The position numbers and the translations under genes were made by a program. A stretch of 52,749 bases of DNA from the sequence record SRR31156797_3954; one strand, written 5' to 3'. Below, piece by piece: positions 34,501-51,747 of the stretch. Position 1 is the first letter of the stretch. Each line of letters starts with the position of its first letter. The notes beneath the pieces were generated by a model. The model did not search any database. It was given only the letters and a program-made list of their open reading frames with translations, and was not told where the DNA came from.

Positions 34501-37500
34501 TATGCTAATTACACTGATAATGCCACCGGCTTTGTTTTAAGTGGATCAAGCACACAATATATAGAAGGTAATGGAACATGGGGTCAATTAGAGCTAGATA
34601 ATATAAGCGGAGCAAGATTAAATAGTGAAATTACTTTGGCGAATGATTTAATAATCACCAATGGTGTATTAGATATTAATTCAAAACTATTATCCCTGGG
34701 CTTAAATAGTGATATAATAGGAAGTGGATACAGTGCTGCAAAAATGATTGCCTCAGATGGAGTATACAGTGATGTGGGGATATCAAAAGTATTTTCAAGT
34801 GCATATGATGGATCTACAGTAATATTTCCGTTAGGTACATCAAACAAATATACGCCGGCTGAAATTGACATTACAAGTATTGGTAATACAGGAACCATCC
34901 GAATAAATAATATTAATAGTAGTCACCCGGGTGTGATTGATGCCACAAATGTCCTTGACTATTATTGGGAAATTGAAAGTACCGGGTTAACAGAATTCAA
35001 TGGAACCGTCGAACTTAATTATTTAGATCGTGACGTAAATGTTACAGGACTGAACACTGAAGCAAACTATGTTGCTACATATTTATTGCTACCAGGAACA
35101 AGTTGGTCTAAAGCTGCCTTTGGCTCAGCCACTGACAATGTAGATGAAGTAAACGACGTCATTACCTTCAATTTCTCAGATAGTGATAATTTAACTGGCG
35201 AATATACTGCTGGAATTGATCAGGCATTACCAGATGAAGTTCCTGAATTTACAAGTGTTCAATCTGGAGACTGGTCAGACCCAAACACCTGGACACAAAC
35301 AGGTGGAGATACTTACACACTTACAGGTGCACCAAATGGTTTTATTATCAATATCCTTGAATCGCATACAGTTACAACATATTCAAATTATTCATCTGCC
35401 TATCGCATTGCGCTTGATGGCACACTCAACATTGACAATACAACCTATGGACATAATCTGGGAACTGTAAGTGGATCAGGCACTTTACATTTAGAAGGAG
35501 CAACCTTCCCTGCAGGTCGGTATACCGCTTTTTTTGATTGCTCCAATGATGCTGTTTTAGAATATGGAGGAACAGGAGAAAACTATACAATCGTAACAGA
35601 TCTTTTTAATACGCTACCATATCTGCATTTTATCGGAACCGGAACAAGAGCATTGCCTGCTGAAGACCTCACGGTTTGCACTCAATTAATGATAGATGGA
35701 CCAACATTGGACAACAGTGTTAACAACAGCAGTTTAACCATCGGAGGAACTATGGAGCGTTATAATACAGGTGCTTTTGTTAGTGGAACCGGTGATGAAG
35801 CCACCGTAACTTTTGCAGGCACCTCTGAACAAACTATCGCAGGTATTTTAGGAGATTTTTCAGGATCTAACGCATTTAACAATCTTGAAATAGATAATAG
35901 TAGTGGTCTAACTATCAATGAAAATGGTGAAATTGAAATTGATGGCTCACTTAAACTCACAGATGGAAATATTACAACCAGCAGCACAAACAAACTTACA
36001 ATTACTAACACTGATAGTGATTGCGTGGAGCCCGCAGGTGGACAAATAAACTCATATGTTGATGGCCCATTAATTAAAGTAATCAATCAGGGAGATAGTT
36101 TTAAATTCCCAATAGGAAAAGATGATGATATTGGAAACAAATTAACACTTTCTAATAGCCAGGCAGGAACAATTGAGTGGACTGTAGAGTATGAAAATCC
36201 TAATGATACATATACTAGTTACAATACTCCTTTATCGTATGTTAACTCATATGATCGATGGATAGTTTCAGCAACCGCAGGTCGCGAAGCCAATATAAGC
36301 ATCGATTGGAATTCAAACAGTGACCTGACTCCGGCCAACACACAAAATGGCACATCAGATATGCGTGTGGCAAAATATGATGAAAGTAATACAGTATGGA
36401 ATGAATTATCATCTAATGCATCAGGAACCAATAATGCAGGAACAGTAACCACAAGCAGCCGAATAACCATTCCTGCCGAAGGTTACTCACTATTTTCAAC
36501 CGCTTGTATCAATACAGTTAAGCCGCAAGCTAAACTTACTCCATATGCTACAGTTTGTGGTACATCAGGAATCCCAGTATCATTCTCATCAAGTCCGAAT
36601 TTAAGTTATGTGCTATCATATACCCTTGATGGCATTTTACAACCAGATGTGACTGTAACATCAACTCCATACACTCTTCCAACACAAGAAAGCGGAGGTG
36701 TATATAAACTGGTCTCATTTACCTATGACGGTGGAACAGCCGGTGCAGTGGACCAAGGTGAAATTACAGTTCACGAACAACCGGAAATCCCAGGTGCGGG
36801 CGATGATCAATCATTGTGTGGGGCAACCCAGGCAACAATTACAGGTACTTCTCCTGCTGTTGGTTCGGTGCTTTGGACCATTACGTCAGGAACCGGAGGA
36901 TCAATTGTCGCTCCTACATCAGAAAGTACAACCTTCAATGGAACCAACGGAACAGGTTATGTGTTAACCTATACCGTTGACAATAACGGATGTACTGCAT
37001 CAGACGAAGTAGAAATTGACTTCCCGGTATTAGCAGCGCAACCTGATCCATTTACAGTATCAAGCACAGATGTTTGTCAAACTGAATCAGATGTAGTATA
37101 CACTGTCCCAGATGATGCTACAGTAAGCTACACATGGTTATTCGACAACAATGGAAATCCTGGCGATGGAAACGATAATTTGGTTATATCAGGAACAGGC
37201 AACAGTATTACCGCTGATTTTTCATCTGTAGGTGCTGATGGAACACTACAAGTAGTTGCTTCAAATGCATGTGGCGATAGCGATCCACGCATGGTTGACA
37301 TTACAATTCATCCTATACCAATTGTTTCGCTTACTGATGATGATGCAGACAATGCCATTTGCAACGGATCAACCATTGAGTTTACAGCAAATGAAACAGC
37401 CGGAATAACTGTTTCTACATATGACTTCCTTGTAAATAGTGTAAGTACACAAAGCGGTGCATCAAATACCTTCAGTACTGCTACTTTATCAAATGGAGAT

Positions 37501-39282
37501 CAGGTAGAAGTAATTGTTACATCAGATGCAAACTGTGCAACTACTAGTAGTGCAACAACTATTTCTGTGGGTGATCGCATATGGGATGGCAGCATAAGTT
37601 CTGATTGGACATTGGCAGATAACTGGAGTTGTGGTGATGAACCAACAAGCAGTGATGCCATTATTATCTCGGGTAGTGCAACCACAATGCCTGAAATTGG
37701 TACAAGTGCAGAGTGCGGTGGATTGACTATCGAATCTGGTGCAACCATTACTTTGCATGGATCAAACAACTTTGATTTATATGGAAACTGGGAAAATTCA
37801 GGTAGTTTTTCAACCAATAATGGTATAGTAAATATTAAAGCCAATGCCACATTAAGTGGGCCTGCTGAAATAACAATAAATGATTTGATCATTGACAATG
37901 GAGTTACCCTTACATCGACAACTGATAACCTGAATATAACTGGTAATTTTACCAATAATGGCACATTTACACATAATAATGGTGATATTACATTTAATGG
38001 TTCCAGTGCTCAAACTATTTCAGGAGATTTTACAGGTAGTAACACTTTAAATAACGTTGAAATTAATAATGCAGCAGGAGTAATCCTTGCCTCAGGCAGC
38101 AAACAAATAAATGGAATATTAACCCTGACAAGTGGAGTAGTTGAATCAAACGGTTTACTGACACTGGGTCAGAGTGCTACGACTAATGTAACTGCTGCAA
38201 GTGGAGAAGTATCAAGTTTCATCAATGGTACTTTAAGTAAAATAATATTCGGAAACAGTGGCCCGGGATTCTTTTTCCCAATTGGTTCTAGTGCAACATA
38301 CAAACCTGTTGGAGTTAGTTCTCTGGCAAATGCTGTTGGAGCCAATACATGGACCGCCCAATATAACAATACAGCACCAGCTGAAAATCCGATTCAATCC
38401 GGAGACGAAATTATTAGGGTTAGCAATAAAGAAAGCTGGACAATTAACTCATCAGGTGGTGATGCGAAAGTAACTATCTCATGGGTTGACAATTATGACG
38501 GCGACTTGTATGTTGATAGCGATCAATTAGGAACGCTCAGAATTGCGCACTTAAACAATAGTTCTGAATGGGAAACAACTAACGCAGGTACGACAACCGG
38601 TGCGGGAGGTAGCTTTGGTACAATTACATCAGGAGACGTTATTTCTTTTGATGGAGCAAAGGCAGGTTCTGAATCATTTACACTTGGAGCTACTGTTGAT
38701 CAATATCACCCACTACCAGTAGAATTGCTTTCATTTACAGGTGTTGAAATTGAAGGTAAAATAAAATTAGACTGGTCAACAGCAACTGAGACAAATAATG
38801 ATTATTTTGAAGTACAACATAGCACCAATGCAATAAACTTTAACACTATAGGAATAGTTAACGGTGCTGGTAACAGTTTGGAAATAAAAGACTATGACTT
38901 CACTCACAACACACCTATAAATGGCATTAACTATTATCGCCTCAAGCAAGTAGACATTAATGGTAACTATGAATTGCTTCATACCATAGCTGTTCACTCG
39001 GAAAGCCTCAGTTTATTTGGCGATGGCTCATTTAATATTTATCCTAATCCGTATAAACAAGGTGAATTATTCATTGAGTTGAATAATCCTGAATCAATCT
39101 CAATTATAAATCTTTCAATTGCAAGTATTACAGGTGAAATTGTTTATCAAGAAGAATTATCTGTTACTTCAAATAAGAGTTTTATAAACCTGTCACATAA
39201 AACAAAACTTTCATCAGGAATATATCTGGTAAATATTAAAAACGGTGGAAATATTGCTGTAAAAAGATTAATTGTATACTAA
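28516..39282 (+). CDS. Giant (3588 aa) modular T9SS-secreted surface protein/adhesin
   Basis: Signal peptide; N-terminal beta-sandwich domains; four G.W....TW/NW modules each followed by beta-helix-like sequence and an FP[IL]G domain; Ig-like stalk; PLPVELLSF domain; IYPNP...GIYLV...KRLIVY CTD. Confidence 0.88.
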   Translation: MSKTSFTPVKKILLATTSIVLFTINTFGQTILFSEDFDGSLPAEWTNTVIEGPTGYPGWEWTNVGGDSGGQLSSTTAANGYMILNSDANGVSISDPEDAELISPAIDCSNVDLVELSLEHWARSWEDMNISIIISTDDFSTETVIYNWSSTIDETNGSNPVESNFDISTYAAGASELKIKFKFQGDWEYWWLIDDIQVTGDNLIWKEDFTYADNTNTGTGIPGITSWTADGGESGVTVMSNELRGRNTRNPNPDQTTWTIDSDDLIEIGGFSDVMVTMDLDNDGNLDNPDYIQIQYNLDESGWVDFPTNGYLNGNFAATTASVSGLNGTTLQLQIIIYCNADNEIYYVDNIQVTGIPTYSGSGKIYYSYQSGNWNVPTTWSHDPGGTTQTAIDIPHSGDNVIILNGRTVTLDADLDTAALDITIREGGVLNQSTYEFTETIAALRGSGTHKLASVNYPSITLNAFAKTDGGTTEYNNASDFTLPTAQTEYYNLRLNASGTTALQLSDISLNGDFHIKQGTYQINDNTATRRQLNIGGDLLVDNGASIVIGTGDTDGSDLSGGTAPFTDYYDKNSHRIVIYGDLINNGTVKFTNQNYPQYDAFPSNGMATVYFRGASNNKLTCNGTTDFYNLVLDKGIDQTFKLTVYSTAYDNFRLFGRNNLDGENDVDNPDLRKALWIRTGTLELTGITIIPSLTEATNAGGTPNGDFYLPVNGALKINGSQVIVYNTADDYQEVNLAYNIAATSNADLGILTAGGNQSLSIYGKLQIEDGYYSTKESGGIITWDKSSGELIINGGIIDAKQYRSSGSEGGLASYSQSGGTFLLRGRFQRTPAAYASINNLKDFSVTTLNTTRESSGLNGNLGTFNINEAENVFAMSGGTIRIYDVCGTGQSEAFQILSDASNNNVTGGTVEIAPITGSGTDATIFHIESNADFGNLVINRLSSAASVNILNNNLTILNDFTITSGEFDANNLNVSIGGDFTLQTGTTYTPGTNSTIFNGSQNQLLTVNLASAPTFNNLTLNNSGDNSLTINGTQSDINVAGTLRLQKGELIDNGKTINASGTIYNAATHSGDGKITLNGTSAQIINGDGNGVFGNIELNNTSAEIAPVSLVANTHINGTLTFSQDKLLDISTYQLSFGEDATVINAGTNRFIQTAGNAGDGGVEKTYSATANSFTFPIGSISTSHAAPEYTPATISFGTNPTSFGSITVTPVGYEHPNTTTNGRSLTYFWRVKSSNFDLGSAAINHAYTYSENDVVTGADITEVGYLATSYSNTTYTWTKYATTDIDESSNLIGGAGTAMATLDYIEGEFTAGDDSPSDPFGTPTVYYSRQTGPWDQTSTWSLTDHDTDDEPASVPGASDIVVIGGNDSIYLDTDDTNPNTGVQNAATLKIEQGSALDIGYNPGCEFSVVLNHENGNGNFRLTTSYTSGSTYAYPGGDFSDFNVNIGTTELYTVNETAGTTYWLPNDISSYGNLIISPLGGSNIIFGNLNVHIYGNLIARGQDSRSWYCPSWREENYPTDPVSPVAKTITIDGNFDLQGGALVWYNMNNIGAQDFVIGGDLIISNGSGVQVHTNGNSNRQSITIGGSLINNGLTPTGAWNDPLAYRGADFTNIPLTFNGNGTQYITNDNPADNTYTILDSLTVNIGSSQTDELILDITGTLNTPTDSWLTLLNGTFKYEHNDDLTISETSIFTIPSTAGLYINSSGNNVYIANDNVDNNDVYLNGKITVIDGNIYIGPTAAPDNNNDIEYSGGGASEIEIQGGSLTINGQIRRNPSNAAGILKYTQSGGSVTINGRNTLSSNAKLEILNTGSTFNMSDGTLTIKRGGGGGTYGDLYIRPETSNVSGGEIIFDPDGNQDFIFDANVPIWDLTLNGSGGNEANVTLLVSPLTIQNDLTIENSSDLDVNSSFDIALTIHGNFENNGTYTHHNNLTTFDGGEQSISGTGTISFYDLIIDPVTSVTLYKDATVNNDISLTSGTFACGDYTLDIKGDVTNYANYTDNATGFVLSGSSTQYIEGNGTWGQLELDNISGARLNSEITLANDLIITNGVLDINSKLLSLGLNSDIIGSGYSAAKMIASDGVYSDVGISKVFSSAYDGSTVIFPLGTSNKYTPAEIDITSIGNTGTIRINNINSSHPGVIDATNVLDYYWEIESTGLTEFNGTVELNYLDRDVNVTGLNTEANYVATYLLLPGTSWSKAAFGSATDNVDEVNDVITFNFSDSDNLTGEYTAGIDQALPDEVPEFTSVQSGDWSDPNTWTQTGGDTYTLTGAPNGFIINILESHTVTTYSNYSSAYRIALDGTLNIDNTTYGHNLGTVSGSGTLHLEGATFPAGRYTAFFDCSNDAVLEYGGTGENYTIVTDLFNTLPYLHFIGTGTRALPAEDLTVCTQLMIDGPTLDNSVNNSSLTIGGTMERYNTGAFVSGTGDEATVTFAGTSEQTIAGILGDFSGSNAFNNLEIDNSSGLTINENGEIEIDGSLKLTDGNITTSSTNKLTITNTDSDCVEPAGGQINSYVDGPLIKVINQGDSFKFPIGKDDDIGNKLTLSNSQAGTIEWTVEYENPNDTYTSYNTPLSYVNSYDRWIVSATAGREANISIDWNSNSDLTPANTQNGTSDMRVAKYDESNTVWNELSSNASGTNNAGTVTTSSRITIPAEGYSLFSTACINTVKPQAKLTPYATVCGTSGIPVSFSSSPNLSYVLSYTLDGILQPDVTVTSTPYTLPTQESGGVYKLVSFTYDGGTAGAVDQGEITVHEQPEIPGAGDDQSLCGATQATITGTSPAVGSVLWTITSGTGGSIVAPTSESTTFNGTNGTGYVLTYTVDNNGCTASDEVEIDFPVLAAQPDPFTVSSTDVCQTESDVVYTVPDDATVSYTWLFDNNGNPGDGNDNLVISGTGNSITADFSSVGADGTLQVVASNACGDSDPRMVDITIHPIPIVSLTDDDADNAICNGSTIEFTANETAGITVSTYDFLVNSVSTQSGASNTFSTATLSNGDQVEVIVTSDANCATTSSATTISVGDRIWDGSISSDWTLADNWSCGDEPTSSDAIIISGSATTMPEIGTSAECGGLTIESGATITLHGSNNFDLYGNWENSGSFSTNNGIVNIKANATLSGPAEITINDLIIDNGVTLTSTTDNLNITGNFTNNGTFTHNNGDITFNGSSAQTISGDFTGSNTLNNVEINNAAGVILASGSKQINGILTLTSGVVESNGLLTLGQSATTNVTAASGEVSSFINGTLSKIIFGNSGPGFFFPIGSSATYKPVGVSSLANAVGANTWTAQYNNTAPAENPIQSGDEIIRVSNKESWTINSSGGDAKVTISWVDNYDGDLYVDSDQLGTLRIAHLNNSSEWETTNAGTTTGAGGSFGTITSGDVISFDGAKAGSESFTLGATVDQYHPLPVELLSFTGVEIEGKIKLDWSTATETNNDYFEVQHSTNAINFNTIGIVNGAGNSLEIKDYDFTHNTPINGINYYRLKQVDINGNYELLHTIAVHSESLSLFGDGSFNIYPNPYKQGELFIELNNPESISIINLSIASITGEIVYQEELSVTSNKSFINLSHKTKLSSGIYLVNIKNGGNIAVKRLIVY

Positions 39283-39302
39283 TTCACAATAACTCCCAAA
39301 GC

Positions 39303-39335
39303 AAAAGCGGCTGCCTTCAAAGACAGCCGCTTTTT
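39303..39335. terminator. Bidirectional Rho-independent terminator
   Basis: AAAAGCGGCTG/CAGCCGCTTTT stem with A and T tracts on either side, between convergent genes. Confidence 0.85.
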
Positions 39336-39352
39336 ATATGAATTTAAACGAA

Positions 39353-39850
39353 TTATAATTTCCCTAGTTGTTTCAATAAATTAGTAAAAAACAGAATAGA
39401 AAGATTCAAACCCTGATTCTTGTCAAATGTAAGTCGCAAAGAATAAATATTTTCATTTCTACCTAAAGTCCACATGCGATCTACAAAACCTTTTTTAAAC
39501 TCCTCATCATCGGTTGAACTCCAGAAACCTTTGCGGTTATCATCAATACCAGTAATTCTTGTAATTTTTTCAATAATTTGTACAATATTCTCCTTTTTGT
39601 GACCCTCATCAGCATGAAAAGTCACATTGATGTGATTGGTTCCCGTAATATTGGTTTTTTCGATAAAAACCCGGAATACAACACGATTGAATACATCAAA
39701 CTCTTTCCAGGGTAGGATTTTTTCATAATCGATCAAAACAGTATCTAAAATTTCTTCGCTGTTTATTTCTTTATAATCTTCGTAGAAAAAGGTGGTCAGA
39801 TCATAAGTGAACAAATCAAGAATATTTTTTGGCTCTTGAAAAAAATTCAT
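39353..39850 (-). CDS. Hypothetical protein
   Basis: 165-aa ORF with ATG start, downstream of mfd. Confidence 0.7.
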   Translation of the reverse strand: MNFFQEPKNILDLFTYDLTTFFYEDYKEINSEEILDTVLIDYEKILPWKEFDVFNRVVFRVFIEKTNITGTNHINVTFHADEGHKKENIVQIIEKITRITGIDDNRKGFWSSTDDEEFKKGFVDRMWTLGRNENIYSLRLTFDKNQGLNLSILFFTNLLKQLGKL

Positions 39851-43243: not shown

Positions 43244-43648
43244 TTAAAAATCATCGTCATCATCGTCGTCATCATCAACACCAACTAGTTTAATTGGAAC
43301 TTTTTTAAGCATTTGATAAATCTCGCCTTCTGATTGAATATCATCATCATCTGTATTATAATACCAAAGCACATCTATTTTCAACCCTGAAGAATAAAGC
43401 TCTTCCAATTTGGTCAATATCAACGAAATCATTTTTGCAGATGCACTATTTAAATAATCCATCCTGAACTTCATCTTTATATCACCTTTAGCATCAGCCA
43501 GGTTCCGCTCTATCCATTTCAAAACAGGATCGTAGGTTTTCACTACATTTTCTGGCAATGACCTCCCTGAAATCTCATAGTGACTTGCTCCCGGATCAAA
43601 AACAACTTTTGGCGTTTTTGGCGTTGCTTCAATGATTAATGGTTCCAT
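43244..43648 (-). CDS. SiaC/DUF1987-family regulatory phosphoprotein
   Basis: IEATPKTPKVVFD, ISGRSLPEN, YLNSAS and WYY..DDDD...GE motifs; Asp9 tail. Confidence 0.8.
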   Translation of the reverse strand: MEPLIIEATPKTPKVVFDPGASHYEISGRSLPENVVKTYDPVLKWIERNLADAKGDIKMKFRMDYLNSASAKMISLILTKLEELYSSGLKIDVLWYYNTDDDDIQSEGEIYQMLKKVPIKLVGVDDDDDDDDDF

Positions 43649-43765: not shown

Positions 43766-44083
43766 TTATGAATCTAAAGTATTCCAATATCTACGAGTAG
43801 ATGGAAAGGATTTTATATTATGCTCTAAATCTTTGAAAGCTTTGTTTAAAGCTTTCAAATCGGTTAGTATACCATAAAACAATTGCTCCATATCTTCATC
43901 TGAAATCTTACCGTCAAGTTTATCAACGAGCCATTTTAAAGAATTTTTTCCATAATAAAAATGAATTCCATCTAATCTTTCAGATTTACCGGAAAGGGTA
44001 CAATAAACCTCTAAACCTCTGTTAGAGAGCTCAGGGTAATCATTTGTAACCTTTTCATAAAGCGAACAACAAGTATGTGCCAT
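43766..44083 (-). CDS. Hypothetical protein (105 aa)
   Basis: Start moved to ATG 44083 (MAHTCCSLY...); minus-strand TAAATTTG box at 44151-44158. Confidence 0.55.
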   Translation of the reverse strand: MAHTCCSLYEKVTNDYPELSNRGLEVYCTLSGKSERLDGIHFYYGKNSLKWLVDKLDGKISDEDMEQLFYGILTDLKALNKAFKDLEHNIKSFPSTRRYWNTLDS

Positions 44084-44190
44084 AGTGATATGTTTTTTGT
44101 TAATTTTTATCAATTGGGATATATAATTTACGATAATTATCAATAGCAGCCAAATTTATTATGTCCCAAAATGAACATTAATTAAAAATA

Positions 44191-44222
44191 TTTGTAGTTT
44201 AAGAAAAGGTTTTATATTATTG
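44191..44222 (+). promoter_or_regulatory. Putative his operon promoter (-33/-7)
   Basis: TTTG (44191-44194), 20-nt spacer, TATTATTG (44215-44222; one mismatch). Confidence 0.55.
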
Positions 44223-44230
44223 TGCCTGAA

Positions 44231-44284
44231 ATGAAGAAACAAACTTTACATACTGCAAACCATCATCATCATATGAAAATGTGA
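44231..44284 (+). CDS. hisL: His operon leader peptide 1 (MKKQTLHTANHHHHMKM)
   Basis: 17-aa ORF with 5 CAT codons, 4 consecutive, followed by an attenuator hairpin. Confidence 0.85.
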   Translation: MKKQTLHTANHHHHMKM

Positions 44285-44317
44285 CGACTGGCAGTAGTAT
44301 GCATAAGCAAAAAATAT

Positions 44318-44354
44318 AAAAGAGGCTTGCAGAAACTGCAAGCCTCTTTTTTTT
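44318..44354 (+). terminator. Attenuator terminator 1
   Basis: AAAAGAGGCTTGCAG-AAA-CTGCAAGCCTCTTTT perfect stem ending in a T8 tract. Confidence 0.9.
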
Positions 44355-44394
44355 ATTAAAACAAAACTTTAAAAATATAATAAACTAAAAAAAT

Positions 44395-44484
44395 ATGAAG
44401 CAAATTAACCCCATACAAATCCATCATCATATGCATCATCATTTCCGATACCGAAGGTACACGGCAAAATGCGTATGGTCATAA
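44395..44484 (+). CDS. hisL: His operon leader peptide 2 (MKQINPIQIHHHMHHHFRYRRYTAKCVWS)
   Basis: 29-aa ORF with 6 CAT codons (HHH-M-HHH), followed by an attenuator hairpin. Confidence 0.85.
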   Translation: MKQINPIQIHHHMHHHFRYRRYTAKCVWS

Positions 44485-44506
44485 AACTCATTAATTTTAG
44501 TTACAG

Positions 44507-44537
44507 AGGGCCGGCAGCAAATGCCGGCCCTTTTTTT
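44507..44537 (+). terminator. Attenuator terminator 2
   Basis: AGGGCCGGCA-GCAAA-TGCCGGCCCT stem, T7 tract, 30 nt before hisG ATG. Confidence 0.9.
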
Positions 44538-44567
44538 ATTCAAGAAATTAAACATAAAACAAATAAA

Positions 44568-45425
44568 ATGGAAAAAATTACAATTGCAGTACAGAAGAAA
44601 GGTCGCATGAGCGACAAATCATTACAACTTTTTAAAGAAAGTGGAATCAGATTTACCAATGGGGAGAGACGATTAATTGCGCTTTCGAATGACTTTCCTA
44701 TTCGCCTGCTATACTTGCGCGACGATGATATTCCACAATACGTTGCAGATGGCGTCGCAGATGCGGGGATTGTTGGTGAAAATGAGGTTTTGGAAAAACG
44801 AAAACCTGTCGATATTGATCTCCGTCTGGGATTTGCAAAATGCAGATTATCCCTTGCTATACCTAAAGATATCAAGTACAAGGATAATAGCTACTTTAAC
44901 GGAAAGCGAATCGCTACCAGTTATCCTCAGATCCTCACTAAATATTTAATTAAAAACAACATCAGAGCTGAAGTGCACGAAATTAGTGGATCAGTAGAAA
45001 TTGCCCCGGGAATTGGGCTTGCTGACGGTATTTTTGATATTGTAAGTTCTGGTAGCACTTTAATTAGCAATGGCCTAAAAGAAGTTGAAACAGTTTTGAA
45101 AAGTGAAGCTGTATTAATAAAGAACATGGCTATATCTAAAGAAAAACAAGCACTACTTGACCAATTGATTTTTAGAATCAATGCCGTGCGAGCTGCTGAT
45201 AATAACAAATACATTTTGCTGAATGCTCCAAACGAAAAGCTTGATGATATCATTGCTTTAATTCCGGGCATGAAAAGCCCAACTGTGGTGCCTTTGGCTG
45301 ATAAAGGTTGGAGTTCAGTACACTCTGTAGTAAATGAATACAAGTTCTGGGAAGTAATTGATGAACTAAAAAATGCAGGTGCAGAGGGAATTTTAGTCAC
45401 TTCACTTGAAAAAATGATTGTTTAA
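44568..45425 (+). CDS. hisG: ATP phosphoribosyltransferase (long form)
   Basis: Start moved to ATG 44568 (MEKITIAVQKKGR); RDDDIP, IATSYP, GSVE, DIVSSGSTL; C-terminal regulatory domain. Confidence 0.97.
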   Translation: MEKITIAVQKKGRMSDKSLQLFKESGIRFTNGERRLIALSNDFPIRLLYLRDDDIPQYVADGVADAGIVGENEVLEKRKPVDIDLRLGFAKCRLSLAIPKDIKYKDNSYFNGKRIATSYPQILTKYLIKNNIRAEVHEISGSVEIAPGIGLADGIFDIVSSGSTLISNGLKEVETVLKSEAVLIKNMAISKEKQALLDQLIFRINAVRAADNNKYILLNAPNEKLDDIIALIPGMKSPTVVPLADKGWSSVHSVVNEYKFWEVIDELKNAGAEGILVTSLEKMIV

Positions 45426-45441
45426 TTCTAACTCACAAACA

Positions 45442-46737
45442 ATGCAATACATTCAATATCAAACAGAAGCAGACCTCGAAAGGGTCATAAAACGACCAAC
45501 TTTTGACAGCAGTGATTTAATTCCTGAAGTGCAACAAATTATGAACTATGTGAGTAAAAATGGAGACCATGCATTAATGGAATTAACCAAAAAATTTGAT
45601 GGTGTTAATCTGCAAAAAATAATCATTGACAAAGTACAAATTATTGCTTCGGAAGGTGCTGTTACAAACGAACTGAAACAAGCTATAAATCAAGCTGCAC
45701 AGAACATCAAAAAATTCCACAATGCCCAAATTCCTGAGACAATAGAGATCGAAGTGGCTCCAGGAATAAACTGTTCTCAGAGAGCAGTACCCATTGAAAA
45801 AGTTGGATTGTATGTTCCTGGTGGAACAGCTCCCCTGTTTTCATCTGTTTTAATGCTTGCCATTCCCGCCGTATTAGCAGGATGCAAAGAAATTATTCTG
45901 TGTACTCCTCCCAATCGCCTAGGAAAAATCCCTGATCCTATGTTATATGCTGCTAAAGTAGCAGGTTTAGAGAAAATTTATTGTGTTGGAGGAGCCCAAG
46001 CTATCGCTGCAATGACTTACGGCACCGAAAGTATTCCCAAAGTTGACAAGATCCTGGGTCCGGGTAATCAATATGTTACAGCAGCAAAGCAATTGGCTTT
46101 TTTACAAGGTACCGCTATAGATATGCCAGCCGGTCCAAGTGAGGTACTCGTAATTGCAGATGAAACATCAAACCCTGCTTTTGTTGCTGCAGACCTTCTT
46201 TCGCAAGCAGAACACGGAATTGACAGTCAGGTTGTACTTGTGTGTACATCATCGGATCTAATTCAACTTATCAAAAAAGAAATCGAGACACAATTAGAAA
46301 TATTGCCCAGAAAATTAATCGCAGCTGAAGCACTTAAAAACAGCACCATAGTGCTTGTATCAGATCTGGATGTAGCAATGATTGTTTCTAATGCCTATGC
46401 ACCTGAGCACTTAATTATTGCTTCTGAAAACAATAAATATTTGGTTGACAAAATCGTAAATGCAGGATCAGTGTTTCTAGGCAACCTAACACCAGAAAGT
46501 GCCGGTGATTATGCATCAGGAACTAATCACACCCTGCCAACAAATATGGCAGCTCGGGCATTTAGCGGCGTCAACATGGATGCTTTCATAAAAAAAATAA
46601 CATTCCAGGAGCTTAATTCTGAAGGAATTCAAAGCATAGGTAATTCAGTTTTCACAATGGCGCTTAATGAGGAATTGCAAGCTCACGCTAATGCAATGTT
46701 GTTAAGATTAAACAGTATTCAAAATCAGCTATCATGA
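45442..46737 (+). CDS. hisD: Histidinol dehydrogenase
   Basis: Start ATG 45442; YVPGG, GGAQAIAA, GPGNQYV, DMPAGPSE, SQAEH, APEHL, GDYASGTNHTLPT. Confidence 0.98.
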   Translation: MQYIQYQTEADLERVIKRPTFDSSDLIPEVQQIMNYVSKNGDHALMELTKKFDGVNLQKIIIDKVQIIASEGAVTNELKQAINQAAQNIKKFHNAQIPETIEIEVAPGINCSQRAVPIEKVGLYVPGGTAPLFSSVLMLAIPAVLAGCKEIILCTPPNRLGKIPDPMLYAAKVAGLEKIYCVGGAQAIAAMTYGTESIPKVDKILGPGNQYVTAAKQLAFLQGTAIDMPAGPSEVLVIADETSNPAFVAADLLSQAEHGIDSQVVLVCTSSDLIQLIKKEIETQLEILPRKLIAAEALKNSTIVLVSDLDVAMIVSNAYAPEHLIIASENNKYLVDKIVNAGSVFLGNLTPESAGDYASGTNHTLPTNMAARAFSGVNMDAFIKKITFQELNSEGIQSIGNSVFTMALNEELQAHANAMLLRLNSIQNQLS

Positions 46738-47780
46738 ATTTAAAAGACATTACAAGAACCAATATATGGAATCTTAAAGCATACAGTTCAGCCAGAAGCC
46801 TGAATATGCAAAAGGATTTAGTTTTATTGGATGCCAACGAAAATCCGTTTTCTGAGAATGGACGTTATCCTGATCCTAACCAAACTGAACTTCGGGAATC
46901 ATTATCAAACTATTACGGAATTCCGGCAAACGCTATCATGCCCGGAAATGGATCTGATGAACTTATCGATTTGTTGTTCAGAGCTTTTACAGAACCAGGT
47001 GAATCTAATATTGTTTTGCCAGATCCAACCTATGGTATGTATGAGGTTTCTGCCAATGTGCAAAACTGCTTAATTCAAAAAGTTTTGCTCAATGATGATT
47101 TCTCTTTGAATGCTTCAAGAATTTTAGCTGCGACGGACTCAAACACGCGAATTATTTTTATCTGTTCGCCCAACAACCCCACAGGAAACGAATTTGATCC
47201 GATGGAAATTGAAAAAGTGCTAAAATCATTCAATGGCATCGTTGTTTTAGATCAAGCATATGCTGATTTCAGTGAAAAACCCAAATGGAGAAATCGCATC
47301 AATGAATTTCCTAATCTGGCTGTTTTGCAAACATTCAGCAAAGCCTGGGGTATGGCAGCATTGCGAATGGGAGTTTTATTTACCAATCCGGAGATAATAG
47401 AAATCCTGATGCGCATCAAATTACCCTATAATATGAACGAACTCACTCAGCAAGTGGTGATTAATGCCTTAAAAAACAAAAATCAGGTTTCGAATTGGAT
47501 TCAATATATTAAAACAGAAAGACAAAGATTAGTTGAAGTACTGGAAAGATTAAGCTTAACTAAAGATATTTTCCCAACAGATGCCAATTATGTACTGGCC
47601 CGTCTTTCAGATGCCAATTTAGTTTATAATAAACTTAAAGAAAAAGGGATAATTGTGCGCAATAGAAGCAACCAGCCCTTATGTGAAAACACCCTTCGAA
47701 TTTCAATTGGCACTCCTGAAGAGAATAACACTTTATTTGAAGCACTTGTAGAAATAGACAACAATTTAAATATAGATTAA
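46734..47780 (+). CDS. hisC: Histidinol-phosphate aminotransferase
   Basis: LDANENP, GNGSDE, SPNNPTG, DQAY, TFSKAWG..ALRMG. Confidence 0.97.
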   Translation: MNLKDITRTNIWNLKAYSSARSLNMQKDLVLLDANENPFSENGRYPDPNQTELRESLSNYYGIPANAIMPGNGSDELIDLLFRAFTEPGESNIVLPDPTYGMYEVSANVQNCLIQKVLLNDDFSLNASRILAATDSNTRIIFICSPNNPTGNEFDPMEIEKVLKSFNGIVVLDQAYADFSEKPKWRNRINEFPNLAVLQTFSKAWGMAALRMGVLFTNPEIIEILMRIKLPYNMNELTQQVVINALKNKNQVSNWIQYIKTERQRLVEVLERLSLTKDIFPTDANYVLARLSDANLVYNKLKEKGIIVRNRSNQPLCENTLRISIGTPEENNTLFEALVEIDNNLNID

Positions 47781-47781
47781 A

Positions 47782-48882
47782 ATGCAGAAAATATTATTCA
47801 TAGATCGCGATGGAACGCTTATTAAAGAACCACCAACAGATTATCAAATTGATGCACTGGAAAAGTTTGCTTTGGTGCCCGGAGTAATTTCTGCATTAAA
47901 GCAAATTATCACTAAAGCCGATTACAAACTCGTAATGGTTTCCAATCAGGATGGTTTGGGTACAGAATCTTTTCCAGAAGAAACATTTACCCCTCACCAA
48001 AATTTATTGATCGACATTTTAGCCTCAGAAGGAATCACATTTGATGAAATTCTGATAGATCCTTCAATGCCAGAAGAAAATAGTCCTAATCGGAAACCCG
48101 GTATTGGAATGTTAAAAGGCTATTTCAATGGACAATACAACCTCAGTGAATCCTATGTAATTGGCGATCGCTATACAGATGTGCAACTGGCAGAAAATAT
48201 TGGCGCAAAGGCTATCTTCTTTAACACTGAAAACAATAAAACCAGTAGCGCCATAAAACTAAAAACAACGAATTGGCAAGAAATTGCTGACTATTTTACA
48301 ACTACTAATCGTAAAGCTGAAATCATCCGTAAAACAAAAGAAACTGATATCTCAGTTAAACTAAATCTGGATCAATTTGAAAATCCTGAAGTCGAGACTG
48401 GTATTGGTTTCTTTGACCATATGTTAGAGCAAATTGGATTTCATGGAAACGTCCAATTAAAAATAAAAACCGTCGGTGATTTAGAAGTTGATGAGCACCA
48501 TACCATTGAAGACACTGGATTAGCTTTAGGTGAAGCTTTTGCAAAAGCCCTGGAAAACAAAAAAGGCCTTGCACGTTATGGTTTCACGCTACCCATGGAC
48601 GAATCTCTGGCCAATGTAGCCATTGACTTTGGTGGTCGCCCTTACCTAAAATGGGATGTAGAATTTATTCGAGATACAGTTGGCAATATTGATGTCACAC
48701 TTTTCGAGCACTTTTTCAGATCATTTGCACAAAAAGCTGCCTGCACACTCCATATTAAGGCCTGTGGCAAAAACGACCACCACATTATTGAGGGTGTTTT
48801 CAAAGCTTTTGCAAGAGCAGTTCGTATGGCAATAGCCAAGACAGACGATGGCATTTTACCTTCATCAAAAGGAAATATTTAA
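47782..48882 (+). CDS. hisB: Bifunctional histidinol-phosphatase/imidazoleglycerol-phosphate dehydratase
   Basis: HAD DRDGT N-domain; FFDHML, DEHHTIED, NDHHIIE, PSSKG. Confidence 0.97.
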   Translation: MQKILFIDRDGTLIKEPPTDYQIDALEKFALVPGVISALKQIITKADYKLVMVSNQDGLGTESFPEETFTPHQNLLIDILASEGITFDEILIDPSMPEENSPNRKPGIGMLKGYFNGQYNLSESYVIGDRYTDVQLAENIGAKAIFFNTENNKTSSAIKLKTTNWQEIADYFTTTNRKAEIIRKTKETDISVKLNLDQFENPEVETGIGFFDHMLEQIGFHGNVQLKIKTVGDLEVDEHHTIEDTGLALGEAFAKALENKKGLARYGFTLPMDESLANVAIDFGGRPYLKWDVEFIRDTVGNIDVTLFEHFFRSFAQKAACTLHIKACGKNDHHIIEGVFKAFARAVRMAIAKTDDGILPSSKGNI

Positions 48883-48892
48883 AAAAAATACT

Positions 48893-49477
48893 ATGATTGT
48901 GGTTATCATAAAATACAACGCAGGAAACATTCAATCGGTAGATTTCGCGCTGCAAAGATTAGGAATCAAGGCACAAATCACCGATGATTTCACTGCAATA
49001 CGTTCCGCAGATAAGGTCATATTTCCCGGTGTGGGTGAAGCTTCTTCAACAATGAAATATCTGCGCGAAAAAGAATTAGACAAACTTATTCCCGATCTAA
49101 AACAGCCTGTGCTGGGAATTTGCCTGGGCATGCAGCTCATGTGTAAAAGCTCTGAAGAAGGAAACACGCAAACGCTTGGAATTTTCGATACTAAAGTAAA
49201 AGAATTTCAACCACAACCAGGTATTAAAATTCCACACATGGGTTGGAACGATGTATCGGCAACAGAAGATGAACTTTTTCAAGTACTTGATCAACAATAC
49301 GTCTATTTCGTGCACAGTTTTTATGCACCGCTTTGCACTGAAACTATGCTGACCTGTGAGTATGGGCAAAAATTCACTGCTGCTATGCAAAAAGACAATT
49401 TTTATGGCGTGCAATTTCATCCTGAAAAAAGTGGTGAAGTAGGATCAAAATTTCTTAACCAATTTTTACAATTATGA
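48893..49477 (+). CDS. hisH: Imidazole glycerol phosphate synthase, glutaminase subunit
   Basis: Start ATG 48893; FPGVG, GICLGMQ, PHMGWN, YFVHSF, QFHPEKS. Confidence 0.97.
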   Translation: MIVVIIKYNAGNIQSVDFALQRLGIKAQITDDFTAIRSADKVIFPGVGEASSTMKYLREKELDKLIPDLKQPVLGICLGMQLMCKSSEEGNTQTLGIFDTKVKEFQPQPGIKIPHMGWNDVSATEDELFQVLDQQYVYFVHSFYAPLCTETMLTCEYGQKFTAAMQKDNFYGVQFHPEKSGEVGSKFLNQFLQL

Positions 49478-50211
49478 ACACACAAATAATTCCTGCAATA
49501 GATATTATTGACGGTCAATGCGTTCGTCTGCAACAAGGAGATTTTAATCGCAAAACTCAGTATGGCCTCAAACCATTGGACGTAGCTATAGAATATGAGA
49601 ACCAGGGCTATGAAAGGCTTCACGTTGTAGATTTGGATGCTGCTAAGGGAGATGGGAAAAGCAATAAAACTACTATTAAAGAAATCGCTTCCAATACCAA
49701 CCTTAAGGTTGATGTTGGAGGCGGGATTAAAAGCACAGAGCAAATAGAACAGCTTTTTGAAAACGGCGTATCCGCAGTCAATATAGGCAGTACAGCAATT
49801 AAGAATCCTGATTTTTTTATTAAATGGTTGGCAGCTTATGGCAACGACAAAATCTGGTTGTCTGCAGATGTGAATAAAACCAAAATAGCCATAAACGGCT
49901 GGCAGCAAAAAACAGAAATCGACCTATTTGATATCCTTCAACAATTTGAACAAACCAATTTGTTAACGGCCGTAATCACATCAATTGATCGCGACGGCAT
50001 GATGAAAGGTCCCAATGTGGAATTGTATGCACAAATAATGAATCAATTCCCGGACCTAAATATCGTGGCCAGTGGTGGAGTTACTTCACCTTCTGATTTA
50101 AAAAAACTTGCTGCCATTGGCATATCACAAGCCATCGTAGGTAAGGCACTTTATGAAACGGATGTATTTGCCAAGTGGAATAATGAAAACATTAATGATT
50201 TAGCAATATGA
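49474..50211 (+). CDS. hisA: ProFAR isomerase
   Basis: IIPAIDIIDGQCVRLQQG, HVVDLDAA, GGGI, ASGGV, VGKALY. Confidence 0.96.
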   Translation: MNTQIIPAIDIIDGQCVRLQQGDFNRKTQYGLKPLDVAIEYENQGYERLHVVDLDAAKGDGKSNKTTIKEIASNTNLKVDVGGGIKSTEQIEQLFENGVSAVNIGSTAIKNPDFFIKWLAAYGNDKIWLSADVNKTKIAINGWQQKTEIDLFDILQQFEQTNLLTAVITSIDRDGMMKGPNVELYAQIMNQFPDLNIVASGGVTSPSDLKKLAAIGISQAIVGKALYETDVFAKWNNENINDLAI

Positions 50212-50316
50212 CGATTCGATTCTAGCTATAAACAAATCAACAAATAACCAAAAAGTTGCTAGAAAAAATAAAAATACAGAAAACTCAATAGTACAATTAA
50301 CACAAAAAATATAAAT

Positions 50317-51072
50317 ATGCTCACAAAACGAATTATACCCTGTCTTGATGTACGCAACGGAAAAACCGTAAAAGGCATCAATTTTAAACAAATAAAAGAA
50401 GTAGGTGACCCTGTAGAATTAGGAAAACTCTATAGTGCTTCAGGCGCCGATGAACTTGTATATCTGGACATTACAGCCAGTCAGGAAGAACGCAATACTT
50501 TTCCCGAACTGGTGCGTCGCATCGCTAAAAATGTAAACATTCCATTTACCGTAGGAGGTGGAATTAAAACTGCACAAGATGCATCTATATTATTACAAGC
50601 AGGTGCCGACAAAGTATCAATCAACTCTGCAGCGCTCTTTAACCCAAAACTCATTAACGATATTGCTTTAGCTTTTGGAAATCAGTGTGTAGTATTAGCC
50701 ATCGATGCAAAGCTAGAAAATGGAAAATGGAACGTATACGCCAAAGGTGGCACGCAACGAACGGCAAAAGAACTTTTCAGCTGGGCTAAAGAAGGCGTGC
50801 AGCGTGGAGCAGGCGAAATTCTTTTCACTTCAATGAACCACGACGGCACAACTAATGGCTATGCCAATGAAGCTTTGCAACAACTTACGGAAACCGTAAA
50901 CGTTCCTGTTATAGCATCTGGTGGTGCAGGCACCATGGAACACTTTGCCGAAACATTTAAAAATGGAAAGGCCGATGCCGCGCTAGCAGCCAGTGTATTC
51001 CATTACGGAAAAATCCAAATCAACGACCTGAAAAAATACCTAATTGGAGAAGGAATTGCAATTCGTAATTAG
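50317..51072 (+). CDS. hisF: Imidazole glycerol phosphate synthase, cyclase subunit
   Basis: [41 protein letters not shown]. Confidence 0.98.
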
Positions 51073-51092
51073 ACCAATAAAAAAGCACGTAA

Positions 51093-51112
51093 AGACGCAC
51101 TATAGTGCGTCT
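51093..51112. repeat. Perfect 20-bp palindrome, REP-like
   Basis: AGACGCACTATAGTGCGTCT between hisF and hisIE; no T tract. Confidence 0.7.
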
Positions 51113-51144
51113 CAACTATAGTACGTCACATTAAAAAAATAAAA

Positions 51145-51747
51145 ATGAACACAAACGAAATAAAATTTGACCCACAAACCAGACTCGTCCCGGCCATCAT
51201 CCAAGACATTGACACCAAACAAGTGCTCATGCTTGGCTATATGAACAAACAATCTCTGGAACTGACGCTTGAAACAAAAAAAGTAACCTTTTACAGTCGA
51301 AGCCGACAAGAAATTTGGGTAAAAGGAGAAACAAGCGGCAACTATCTCAACCTCATCAGCATTGATGCAGATTGCGATAGCGACACATTGCTCATTTTAG
51401 CTAAACCCGTTGGACCAACATGCCACACAGGCAGCTACAATTGCTTCGACATAAAAAAGCAACCTGTGCTGGATTTTCTACCCAAACTTCAAGGTGTAAT
51501 TGACCAGCGCAAAAAAGAGATGCCAGAAGGATCTTACACCACACACCTATTCACAAAAGGAATCGATAAAATTGCCCAGAAAGTAGGTGAAGAAGCCGTT
51601 GAAACCATCATCGAAGCTAAAAACACCGACGATAATCTGTTACTAAATGAATCAGCAGACCTACTTTATCACTTAATGGTGCTACTAAGCGCCCGAAACC
51701 TAAGCATAAAAGATGTGGAGGATATATTGGTTGAAAGGCACAAGTAA
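51145..51747 (+). CDS. hisIE: Bifunctional phosphoribosyl-AMP cyclohydrolase/phosphoribosyl-ATP pyrophosphatase
   Basis: SRSRQEIWVKGETSGN, DCDSD, CHTG...CF, KVGEEAVE, ADLLYH. Confidence 0.97.
   Translation: MNTNEIKFDPQTRLVPAIIQDIDTKQVLMLGYMNKQSLELTLETKKVTFYSRSRQEIWVKGETSGNYLNLISIDADCDSDTLLILAKPVGPTCHTGSYNCFDIKKQPVLDFLPKLQGVIDQRKKEMPEGSYTTHLFTKGIDKIAQKVGEEAVETIIEAKNTDDNLLLNESADLLYHLMVLLSARNLSIKDVEDILVERHK

What the first reader, a model, noticed from the sequence alone, without database searches (positions are those of the whole stretch)
44191..44567. Two complete histidine leader-peptide attenuators in series upstream of hisG
Seen: leader 1 (44231-44284, MKKQTLHTANHHHHMKM) with terminator 1 (44318-44354), then leader 2 (44395-44484, MKQINPIQIHHHMHHHFRYRRYTAKCVWS) with terminator 2 (44507-44537), then hisG at 44568. 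All 11 His codons are CAT. Both units have a CATAC before the His run that is complementary to a downstream GTATG (CATACT/AGTATG; CCATAC/GTATGG), a candidate protector stem. Unit 1 has a candidate antiterminator, TGCA-TA-AGC, pairing with GCTTGCA in the terminator 5' arm. No TAnnTTTG box lies between terminator 1 and leader 2. The two terminators differ in sequence, so this is not a recent duplication. Known: single ribosome-stalling his attenuators are classical, and tandem T-boxes/riboswitches sharpen dose-response. Inference: a serial two-gate attenuator that multiplies repression and steepens the response to His-tRNA starvation. I do not recall tandem leader-peptide his attenuators being described but cannot verify novelty.
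Basis: partly seen in the sequence, partly recalled or inferred. Interest (0 to 1): 0.85.

Follow-up and report, generated by a model that had tools for sequence, protein, structure and literature searches.

The report
Two histidine leader attenuators in series
The histidine-biosynthesis operon of this Bacteroidales bacterium is preceded by two complete histidine-sensing "leader peptide plus terminator" switches in a row instead of the usual one, an arrangement that recurs in two other Bacteroidales genomes and probably tightens control of the operon.

Summary
Upstream of an eight-gene his operon (hisG start 44568) lie two units. Each has a His-rich mini-ORF (5 and 6 His codons, all CAT) followed by a strong intrinsic terminator (-22.8 and -23.5 kcal/mol).

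I surveyed the region upstream of hisG in 80 Bacteroidota genomes. One such unit is the norm: 65 of 80 loci have a His-rich mini-ORF. Two Bacteroidales genomes (L002, L048) carry the same leader-terminator-leader-terminator layout.

A covariance model built only from eight single-unit relatives finds both window units (70.2 and 33.8 bits). Unit 1 is the canonical Bacteroidales his leader. Unit 2 is a diverged second copy whose best match is unit 2 of L048.

The 44-base spacer between the units contains no G, so it cannot hold a Bacteroidetes-type promoter box. One transcript therefore probably crosses both gates.

His-dependent switching is inferred, not shown. The candidate antiterminators are no better than shuffled sequence, and unit 1's is weak.

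Verdict: a real, conserved tandem attenuator, a new variant of a known mechanism. My literature searches found no earlier description.

The parts
44191..44222 (+). Candidate Bacteroidetes-type promoter: -33 TTTG (44191-44194), then a -7 box TATTATTG (44215-44222, one mismatch to TAnnTTTG) 20 nt downstream. The transcription start would fall near 44227-44229, leaving leader 1 almost leaderless.
   Evidence: motif scan. Relatives carry TAnn[T/A]TTGCA 16-21 nt before their leader ATG. The consensus itself is recalled, not taken from a call. Inferred; not mapped.
44231..44284 (+). Leader ORF 1, MKKQTLHTANHHHHMKM*. It has 5 His codons, all CAT: one at 44249-51 and four at 44261-72.
44249..44301 (+). 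Unit 1 hairpin (regions 1:2). The outer helix pairs 44249-56 with 44294-301 and encloses the His run.
   Evidence: -18.1 kcal/mol, z = -3.25, 1 of 200 shuffles as good. The same CAUA...UAUG(CAG) pairing appears with different flanking bases in relatives.
44300..44331 (+). Unit 1 candidate antiterminator (regions 2:3): UGCA-UA-AGC (44300-08) pairs with GCUUGCA (44325-31) in the terminator's 5' arm.
   Evidence: Appears in folds with the His codons masked. About -6 kcal/mol, and not better than shuffles (202 of 300 as good).
44318..44354 (+). Terminator 1: a 15-bp stem (A-tract / U-tract extended, so symmetrical) with an 8-T run.
   Evidence: -22.8 kcal/mol. Its stem GGCUUGCAG/CUGCAAGCC matches the conserved stem of single-unit Bacteroidales relatives.
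44351..44394 (+). Inter-unit spacer: 27 A, 14 T, 3 C and 0 G. It has no room for a TTTG-containing promoter box and forms an A-rich approach to the leader 2 start codon.
   Evidence: Similar A-rich spacers (AAAACAAA) occur in L002 and L048.
44395..44484 (+). Leader ORF 2, MKQINPIQIHHHMHHHFRYRRYTAKCVWS*. It has 6 His codons, all CAT, at 44422-30 and 44434-42.
44426..44479 (+). Unit 2 hairpin (regions 1:2): the His-codon stretch 44426-36 pairs with 44469-79 (AUGCGUAUGGU). An alternative helix pairs CCAUAC (44411-16) with GUAUGG (44473-78).
   Evidence: -16.4 kcal/mol, z = -1.38, 18 of 200 shuffles as good, so not significant on energy alone. The equivalent helix in L048 unit 2 keeps pairing through one G-C to C-G swap (read by eye).
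44470..44519 (+). Unit 2 candidate antiterminator: UGC (44470-72), UGGUC (44476-80) and CUC (44487-89) pair with GAGGGCCG (44506-13) and GCA (44517-19). This occupies 8 of the 12 bases of the terminator's 5' arm.
   Evidence: -10.3 to -15.1 kcal/mol with the ribosome mask; 41 of 300 shuffles as good.
44505..44537 (+). Terminator 2: a 12-bp G+C-rich stem with a 7-T run.
   Evidence: -23.5 kcal/mol.
44568..51747 (+). Regulated operon: hisG, hisD, hisC, hisB (bifunctional), hisH, hisA, hisF, hisIE.
   Evidence: every gene scores above its NCBIfam curated cut-off.

Best explanation
One promoter near 44191-44222 drives a transcript that must pass two ribosome-mediated histidine attenuators before it reaches hisG.

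In each unit a short ORF with a run of CAU codons is translated while RNA polymerase is still in the leader.

- When His-tRNA is plentiful, the ribosome clears the His codons. The hairpin around the His run re-forms or its 3' strand stays unavailable, the terminator hairpin folds, and transcription stops at 44354 or at 44537.
- When His-tRNA is scarce, the ribosome stalls on the CAU run and holds the 5' strand of that hairpin. The freed 3' strand pairs with the 5' arm of the terminator, and polymerase reads through.

Because the gates are in series, read-through probabilities multiply. Basal expression is lower and the response to His starvation is steeper than with a single gate.

Unit 1 is the canonical Bacteroidales his leader. 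Unit 2 is an old, diverged second copy lying between unit 1 and hisG.

Shown: the ORFs, the terminators, the hairpin of unit 1, family membership of both units, recurrence of the layout, and the absence of a promoter box between the units. Inferred: translation of both ORFs, the antiterminators, His dependence, and multiplicative action.
For: - Anatomy at the stated coordinates.
- A complete his operon lies immediately downstream.
- Single leader-plus-terminator units are the rule upstream of hisG in Bacteroidota. 65 of 80 fetched loci have a His-rich mini-ORF within 650 nt, most followed by a hairpin and T-run.
- Model R1, built from 8 single-unit loci and from none of the tandem ones, hits window 44231-44356 (70.2 bits, E = 1e-11) and 44395-44541 (33.8 bits, E = 2e-4). 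Apart from minus-strand matches over the palindromic terminators, the only other match in the 52.7-kb window at E <= 1 is 39297-39421 on the minus strand (17.9 bits, E 0.39).
- The same leader-terminator-leader-terminator layout occurs in L002 and L048. Their upstream neighbour genes differ from the window's: co-directional there, divergent here.
- Unit 2 of the window and unit 2 of L048 are reciprocal best matches (z = 13.6 and 11.8). Unit 1 is closest to the single units L009 (18.3) and L002_U1 (17.4).
- Masking a ribosome footprint on the His codons releases the 3' strand. In unit 2 this pairs 8 of the 12 bases of the 5' arm upstream.
- No G in the spacer 44351-44394.
- 11 of 11 His codons are CAT.
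Against: - The antiterminator pairings are not better than dinucleotide shuffles. Shuffles as good, out of 300: win_U1 202, win_U2 41, L002_U1 242, L002_U2 151, L048_U1 44, L048_U2 29.
- In unit 1, 5 arm bases pair upstream even in the free RNA, so the computed switch is small.
- Pre-terminator folds are not significant for unit 2 (z = -1.38), L002_U2 (-1.81), L048_U1 (-1.09) or L048_U2 (-0.32).
- Model R1 finds L048_U1 only weakly (23.1 bits, E = 0.033) and does not find L048_U2 at E <= 1.
- The three tandem loci are not one clade on the hisG tree. L048 is sister to single-unit L062 with 100% SH-aLRT, so gains or losses must be invoked.
- The promoter assignment rests on a one-mismatch box. 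It would leave only about 2-4 nt of 5' UTR before leader 1, against 16-21 nt in relatives.
- No expression data exist for this organism.
Confidence: 0.6

Rival explanations
1. Only one unit is a working His sensor. The other is a decaying duplicate whose terminator is constitutively leaky or constitutively strong. It sets a fixed damping factor and adds no His sensitivity.
For: Unit 1's antiterminator is weak and no better than shuffles. Unit 2's hairpin is not significant on energy. Unit 2 scores only 33.8 bits against the family model.
Against: Both ORFs are intact, both keep uninterrupted CAU runs, and both keep strong terminators. The same two-unit layout survives in genomes whose hisG is only 63-67% identical to the window's, which argues for selection on both units. 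Single-unit relatives show equally weak computed antiterminators, so weakness in this calculation does not mark a dead unit.
Confidence: 0.17
2. Unit 1 is a separate small transcription unit. Its terminated RNA or its 17-aa peptide acts in trans, as the trp attenuator products rnTrpL and peTrpL do in Sinorhizobium meliloti. Unit 2 plus the his operon would then be transcribed mainly from an unrecognised promoter.
For: Terminator 1 is very strong and symmetrical. Attenuator-derived sRNAs and leader peptides with trans functions are documented; I saw only the abstract starts in the listing (PMC7968998, PMC7298713).
Against: The spacer has no G, hence no TTTG box. Unit 1 is homologous to the units that sit directly before hisG in single-unit relatives. 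A trans role would add to the cis role and need not replace it.
Confidence: 0.1
3. Unit 1 is left over from a lost or moved gene (for example another His-regulated gene) that once lay between the two units.
For: Tandem units are rare (2 of 80 other loci).
Against: In both other tandem loci the units are also directly adjacent, with no gene between them. None of the 80 loci shows a leader-terminator-gene-leader-terminator-hisG arrangement within 650 nt.
Confidence: 0.05

Closest known systems
hisL leader-peptide attenuator of the Escherichia coli / Salmonella his operon (Rfam His_leader, RF00514)
   Same: A short ORF with a run of His codons, alternative hairpins and an intrinsic terminator sit directly upstream of hisG. 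The logic is sensing of charged tRNA-His through ribosome stalling. (The mechanism is textbook knowledge, recalled here.)
   Different: There is no detectable sequence or structure match to RF00514 (no hit at E <= 10; nothing at gathering threshold). The His runs are shorter (4+1 and 3+3, against 7 as I recall). There is no Shine-Dalgarno-type context. There are two complete units instead of one.
Single his leader units of other Bacteroidota
   Same: Unit 1 shares with them the H-x-x-x-HHHH peptide pattern, the CAUA/UAUG hairpin and the GGCUUGCA terminator stem. The Flavobacterium psychrophilum transcriptome paper notes conserved 5' elements upstream of hisG with no Rfam hit, and leader-peptide attenuation upstream of amino-acid operons (PMC9723704; passages read). 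Vitreschak et al. 2004 predicted such attenuators in Bacteroidetes; this is recalled and was not seen.
   Different: Those loci have one unit. The window has two in series.
Tandem attenuators of the Salmonella mgtCBR leader (mgtM and mgtP)
   Same: Two short ORFs in one long leader, each proposed to control stem-loop choice and transcription into the coding region (PMC3641672; title and start of abstract only).
   Different: As I recall, the two mgtCBR ORFs respond to different signals (ATP and proline charging) and are not paralogues. Here both ORFs carry the same His-codon signal, and each is followed by its own canonical intrinsic terminator.
Tandem riboswitches and tandem T-boxes
   Same: Two complete sensors of the same ligand, each with its own terminator, in series on one leader. 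This gives lower basal read-through and a steeper response.
   Different: Those sense a metabolite or an uncharged tRNA directly through RNA. Here the sensor is a translating ribosome.

Membership tests
Ribosome-mediated (leader-peptide) transcription attenuator | A short ORF enriched in codons of the end-product amino acid lies upstream of the biosynthetic operon. | tested here: met
   Two ORFs with 5 of 17 and 6 of 29 His codons lie upstream of hisGDCBHAF-IE.
Ribosome-mediated (leader-peptide) transcription attenuator | An intrinsic terminator lies between the leader ORF and the first structural gene. | tested here: met
   Hairpins of -22.8 and -23.5 kcal/mol followed by 8 and 7 T.
Ribosome-mediated (leader-peptide) transcription attenuator | Mutually exclusive structures (1:2, 2:3 antiterminator, 3:4 terminator), with region 1 overlapping the regulatory codons. 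| tested here: inconclusive
   The 1:2 hairpins enclose or overlap the His codons. Unit 1 has z = -3.25 and unit 2 has z = -1.38. Antiterminators appear under a ribosome mask but are not better than shuffles.
Ribosome-mediated (leader-peptide) transcription attenuator | Read-through rises when charged tRNA-His is scarce. | not testable with these tools
   This needs expression or in vitro data.
Rfam His_leader (RF00514) | A match to the covariance model at or above its gathering score. | tested here: not met
   No match even at E <= 10 over 43900-44800, and none at gathering threshold in the whole window. The best sub-threshold hit was Thr_leader over unit 1: 35.8 bits against a gathering score of 55.
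Bacteroidales his leader (uncurated; model R1 built here from 8 single-unit loci) | A full-length match to the model on the hisG strand, upstream of hisG. | tested here: met
   Unit 1: 70.2 bits, E = 9.6e-12. Unit 2: 33.8 bits, E = 2.3e-4. Both span model positions 1-125. The model's E-values are rough because calibration was short.
Tandem same-signal cis-regulators (as in tandem riboswitches or T-boxes) | Two complete sensor-plus-terminator units on one transcript, with no promoter between them. | tested here: inconclusive
   Two complete units are present. No TAnnTTTG-like box and no G occur in the spacer. The transcription start was not mapped.

The most novel reading that the evidence does not exclude
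This would be a natural two-stage leader-peptide attenuator in which both stages sense the same amino acid. It is old within Bacteroidales, because the unit-2 type is shared by the window and L048 across about 63% hisG identity. Selection maintains it to give the his operon a switch-like, multiplicative response. A bolder addition: the second leader carries a conserved Arg/Tyr-rich tail (FRYRRY here, LRYRRR in L048) encoded by different codons. That tail might act through the nascent peptide or through Arg-codon decoding, and not only through RNA structure.
Probability: 0.45. Interest if true: 0.6.

Novelty: new variant of a known kind. Interest (0 to 1): 0.5.

Why it matters
Leader-peptide attenuation is a textbook mechanism, but it has been studied almost only as single units in Proteobacteria.

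A conserved tandem version that senses one amino acid twice would be the ribosome-based counterpart of tandem riboswitches and tandem T-boxes. It would give a natural test of whether serial gates sharpen amino-acid responses.

It also matters for Bacteroidota. They lack Shine-Dalgarno-led initiation and use an unusual promoter, and how transcription and translation are coupled in them is poorly known. Two nearly leaderless or A-rich-led mini-ORFs controlling terminators would make a compact system for studying that coupling.

On the practical side, the survey and model R1 show that a his-leader family is widespread in Bacteroidota and has no Rfam entry.

Tried and rejected
- **Rfam.** No family reaches gathering score in the window. 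His_leader is absent even at E <= 10. The Thr_leader hit (35.8 bits) reflects generic attenuator shape and is not membership.
- **RNAalifold on MAFFT alignments of the units** (A3). It recovered only the terminator helix (10 pairs, 3 with compensatory changes). The 1:2 helix could not be tested for covariation because the middle of the alignment is unreliable. The compensatory change I cite between window U2 and L048 U2 was read by eye from the folds. It rests on two sequences only.
- **Shuffle test of the antiterminators**. No unit stands out, so I do not claim the antiterminators as demonstrated.
- **A single origin for the tandem loci on the hisG tree** (quick IQ-TREE, LG+G4, 81 rows). They need 3 changes, the same as shuffled labels (500 of 500 shuffles as low). 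One origin is not supported by this tree, which is poorly resolved (25 of 78 inner branches open).
- **Closest relatives.** hisG proteins 79-93% identical to the window's (P0001-P0007) exist only as proteins here. So the layout in the nearest relatives stayed unchecked.
- **First architecture script**. It stopped on a formatting error and was rerun.
- **Literature.** Six full-text searches found no paper describing tandem his leader peptides. The library lacks most subscription journals, and Vitreschak et al. 2004 could not be read.

Full report
**What is in the sequence**

The window is low in G+C (35.9%). It encodes a 3588-aa protein with a type IX secretion C-terminal sorting domain. Its hisG is closest to proteins from Bacteroidales metagenome bins, one of them named Salinivirgaceae at 79% identity.

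From 44568 to 51747 lies a complete his operon, hisG-D-C-B-H-A-F-IE. Every gene scores above its NCBIfam curated cut-off. The gene upstream (43766-44083, minus strand, no family match) is divergent. The 484 bases from 44084 to 44567 are therefore a promoter-plus-leader region for the his operon.

- Leader 1 (44231-44284) encodes MKKQTLHTANHHHHMKM.
- Terminator 1 is a 15-pair hairpin at 44318-44350 with eight T up to 44354.
- Leader 2 (44395-44484) encodes MKQINPIQIHHHMHHHFRYRRYTAKCVWS.
- Terminator 2 is a 12-pair, G+C-rich hairpin at 44505-44533 with seven T up to 44537.
- The hairpins are worth -22.8 and -23.5 kcal/mol.

The in-frame ATG at 44469 that the ORF listing joins to hisG is not the start. 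It would read through terminator 2, and the hisG homologues are 285 aa and align from residue 1.

**Is it more than chance?**

In the whole window, both strands, only five ATG-ORFs of 60 aa or less have at least four His in eight residues. Two are these leaders and the other three lie inside long ORFs. Shuffled windows give 0.38 on average.

All 11 His codons are CAT. In 14 long genes the ratio is 94 CAT to 54 CAC, giving p = 0.0068 if codons were independent. Repeat slippage in CATCAT runs could contribute to this.

**What relatives show**

It returned 80 loci, nearly all Bacteroidota, with hisG 59-67% identical to the window's.

A script then scanned the 650 bases upstream of each hisG. It looked for ATG-ORFs of 8-45 aa with at least three His in eight residues, and for hairpins of -7 kcal/mol or better followed by a T-rich stretch.
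- 65 of 80 loci have at least one His-rich mini-ORF, most followed by a hairpin and T-run. 15 of 80 have none.
- The leader-peptide his attenuator is thus the normal state in this phylum, although Rfam has no family for it.
- This agrees with remarks in a Flavobacterium transcriptome study on a conserved 5' element upstream of hisG without an Rfam hit (PMC9723704; passages read).
- Exactly two loci repeat the window's layout of leader, terminator, leader, terminator, hisG. They are L002 (uncultured Bacteroidales) and L048 (a Bacteroidales bin).
- L017 has two His-rich ORFs, but they overlap in different frames and are not tandem units.

In L002 and L048 the upstream gene is co-directional and ends 59-115 bases before leader 1. 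In the window the upstream gene is divergent. The pair of units therefore travels with hisG and not with the upstream neighbour. In none of the three genomes is there a gene between the units.

**Relationship of the two units**

Local alignment z-scores (against mononucleotide shuffles, so inflated by shared CAT and T runs but comparable with one another) show the following.
- Window unit 1 is closest to the single unit of L009 (18.3) and to L002 unit 1 (17.4).
- Window unit 2 and L048 unit 2 are reciprocal best matches (13.6 and 11.8).
- L048 unit 1 is closest to the single unit of L062 (12.0), which is its sister on the hisG tree.

A covariance model built only from eight single-unit Bacteroidales loci (A4, R1) finds the following.
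- Window unit 1: 70.2 bits (E about 1e-11).
- Window unit 2: 33.8 bits (E about 2e-4).
- L002 units: 60.5 and 50.6 bits.
- L048 unit 1: 23.1 bits only. L048 unit 2 is not found at E <= 1.
- The other window matches at E <= 1 are all on the minus strand. Two lie over the palindromic terminators. The third is a weak hit at 39297-39421 (17.9 bits, E 0.39), far from the leader.

I conclude that unit 1 is the canonical Bacteroidales his leader. Unit 2 is a diverged member of the same family lying between unit 1 and hisG. The duplication is old and not recent.

On a quick hisG tree all three tandem loci fall in the Bacteroidales group of 18 rows, but they do not form one clade. L048 is sister to single-unit L062 (Perlabentimonas gracilis) with 100% SH-aLRT. 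The history therefore includes either losses or more than one gain. The tree is too poorly resolved to decide.

**One transcript or two?**

Bacteroidetes promoters use a -7 box TAnnTTTG and a -33 TTTG (recalled knowledge). The intergenic region has no exact box. One-mismatch boxes lie at 44187-94 and at 44215-22.
- The box at 44215-22 (TATTATTG) has a TTTG 20 nt upstream (44191-94). It resembles the TAnn[T/A]TTGCA that precedes leader 1 in the relatives.
- It would put the transcription start about 2-4 nt before the leader 1 ATG, much closer than in the relatives (16-21 nt). This is a weak point in the assignment.
- Between terminator 1 and leader 2 (44351-44394) there are 27 A, 14 T, 3 C and no G, so no TTTG-containing box can exist there.
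- The spacers of L002 and L048 are similarly A-rich and share an AAAACAAA motif. This looks like the A-rich translation-initiation context of this phylum (recalled).

This supports a single transcript crossing both gates, but the start was not mapped.

**Folding and mechanism**

Unit 1 folds into a hairpin whose outer helix (44249-56 with 44294-301) encloses the His run, followed by the terminator.
- Without the terminator, the leader segment still folds better than shuffles (-18.1 kcal/mol, z = -3.25, 1 of 200 as good).
- The same CAUA...UAUG(CAG) pairing, with different neighbouring bases, appears in the single-unit relatives.

Unit 2 folds so that the His codons themselves (44426-36) pair with 44469-79. 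This fold is not significant on energy (z = -1.38, 18 of 200 as good).

I then masked a ribosome footprint over each His codon and folded the transcript up to the terminator loop.
- In unit 2 the freed 3' strand pairs with 8 of the 12 bases of the terminator's 5' arm (-10.5 to -15.1 kcal/mol).
- In the free RNA, 5 arm bases of unit 1 still pair upstream.

A shuffle control shows that these antiterminators are not better than chance. Shuffles as good, out of 300: 202 for unit 1, 41 for unit 2, and 242, 151, 44 and 29 for the four L002 and L048 units.

The classical three-structure scheme fits the anatomy, and the canonical family shows the same short UGCA-centred pairings. The antiterminator step is nevertheless inferred and not demonstrated.

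**Best explanation and rivals**

I think the most likely reading (0.6) is a serial pair of His-sensing attenuators on one transcript that multiply each other's termination. The rivals are:
- one unit is a fixed damper without His sensitivity (0.17);
- unit 1 is mainly an independent small RNA or peptide unit, as described for the Sinorhizobium trp attenuator (abstract starts seen) (0.1);
- unit 1 is a relic of a lost gene (0.05), which the two other tandem loci argue against.

**Comparison with what is known**

It works like the enterobacterial hisL attenuator but is not a member of Rfam His_leader.

It resembles the tandem attenuators of Salmonella mgtCBR in having two leader ORFs (PMC3641672; title and abstract start only). 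As I recall, however, those sense different signals. Its closest functional analogues are tandem riboswitches and tandem T-boxes (recalled).

Six full-text searches found no description of tandem his leader peptides. The library omits most subscription journals, and I could not read Vitreschak et al. 2004. The claim of novelty is therefore provisional.

**Verdict**

This is a real and conserved feature, and a new variant of a known kind. It is moderately interesting (0.5). The architecture is solid. The regulatory behaviour awaits mapping of RNA ends and reporter tests.

Noticed in passing
window 44446-44463; L048 2778-2798: After the His codons, leader 2 encodes F-R-Y-R-R-Y. L048 leader 2 encodes L-R-Y-R-R-R at the same place using different Arg codons (CGA CGA AGG here; CGC AGG CGG CGG there). 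In the window these are the less-used Arg codons (CGA 15%, AGG 6%, against AGA 33%). It is open whether the constraint acts on the peptide, on codon decoding, or on G+C-rich RNA pairing.
   Followed up: partly
window 44215-44233: If TATTATTG is the -7 box, leader 1 would be translated from an almost leaderless mRNA (about 2-4 nt of 5' UTR). In the relatives, 16-21 nt separate the box from the leader ATG.
   Followed up: partly
L008, L017, L021, L025, L027, L041, L054, L055, L056 (about -210 to -100 relative to hisG): The Cyclobacteriaceae-type loci share a longer leader ending in ...HH[FI]HHSS*. My scan found no hairpin plus T-run after it, which suggests a different expression platform in that lineage.
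   Followed up: no
L027, L055, L040, L059, L067: These records are titled Limnohabitans, Synechococcus or Pyrinomonadaceae, yet they carry Bacteroidota-type hisG genes and His leaders that nest inside Bacteroidota clades. This points to mis-binned contigs or gene transfer.
   Followed up: no
window 28516-39282 (+): A giant 3588-aa ORF with a type IX secretion C-terminal sorting domain and PKD/Ig-like domains near its end. Most of the protein matches no Pfam family.
   Followed up: no
window 43244-43648 (-) and 43766-44083 (-): A SiaC-family regulatory phosphoprotein homologue (Pfam 109.8 bits) lies next to a 105-aa protein with no family match. Both are divergent from the his leader.
   Followed up: no
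window 44318-44350, both strands: Terminator 1 is flanked by an A-tract and a T-tract and scores as a terminator on both strands. No minus-strand gene lies to its right that it could serve.
   Followed up: partly
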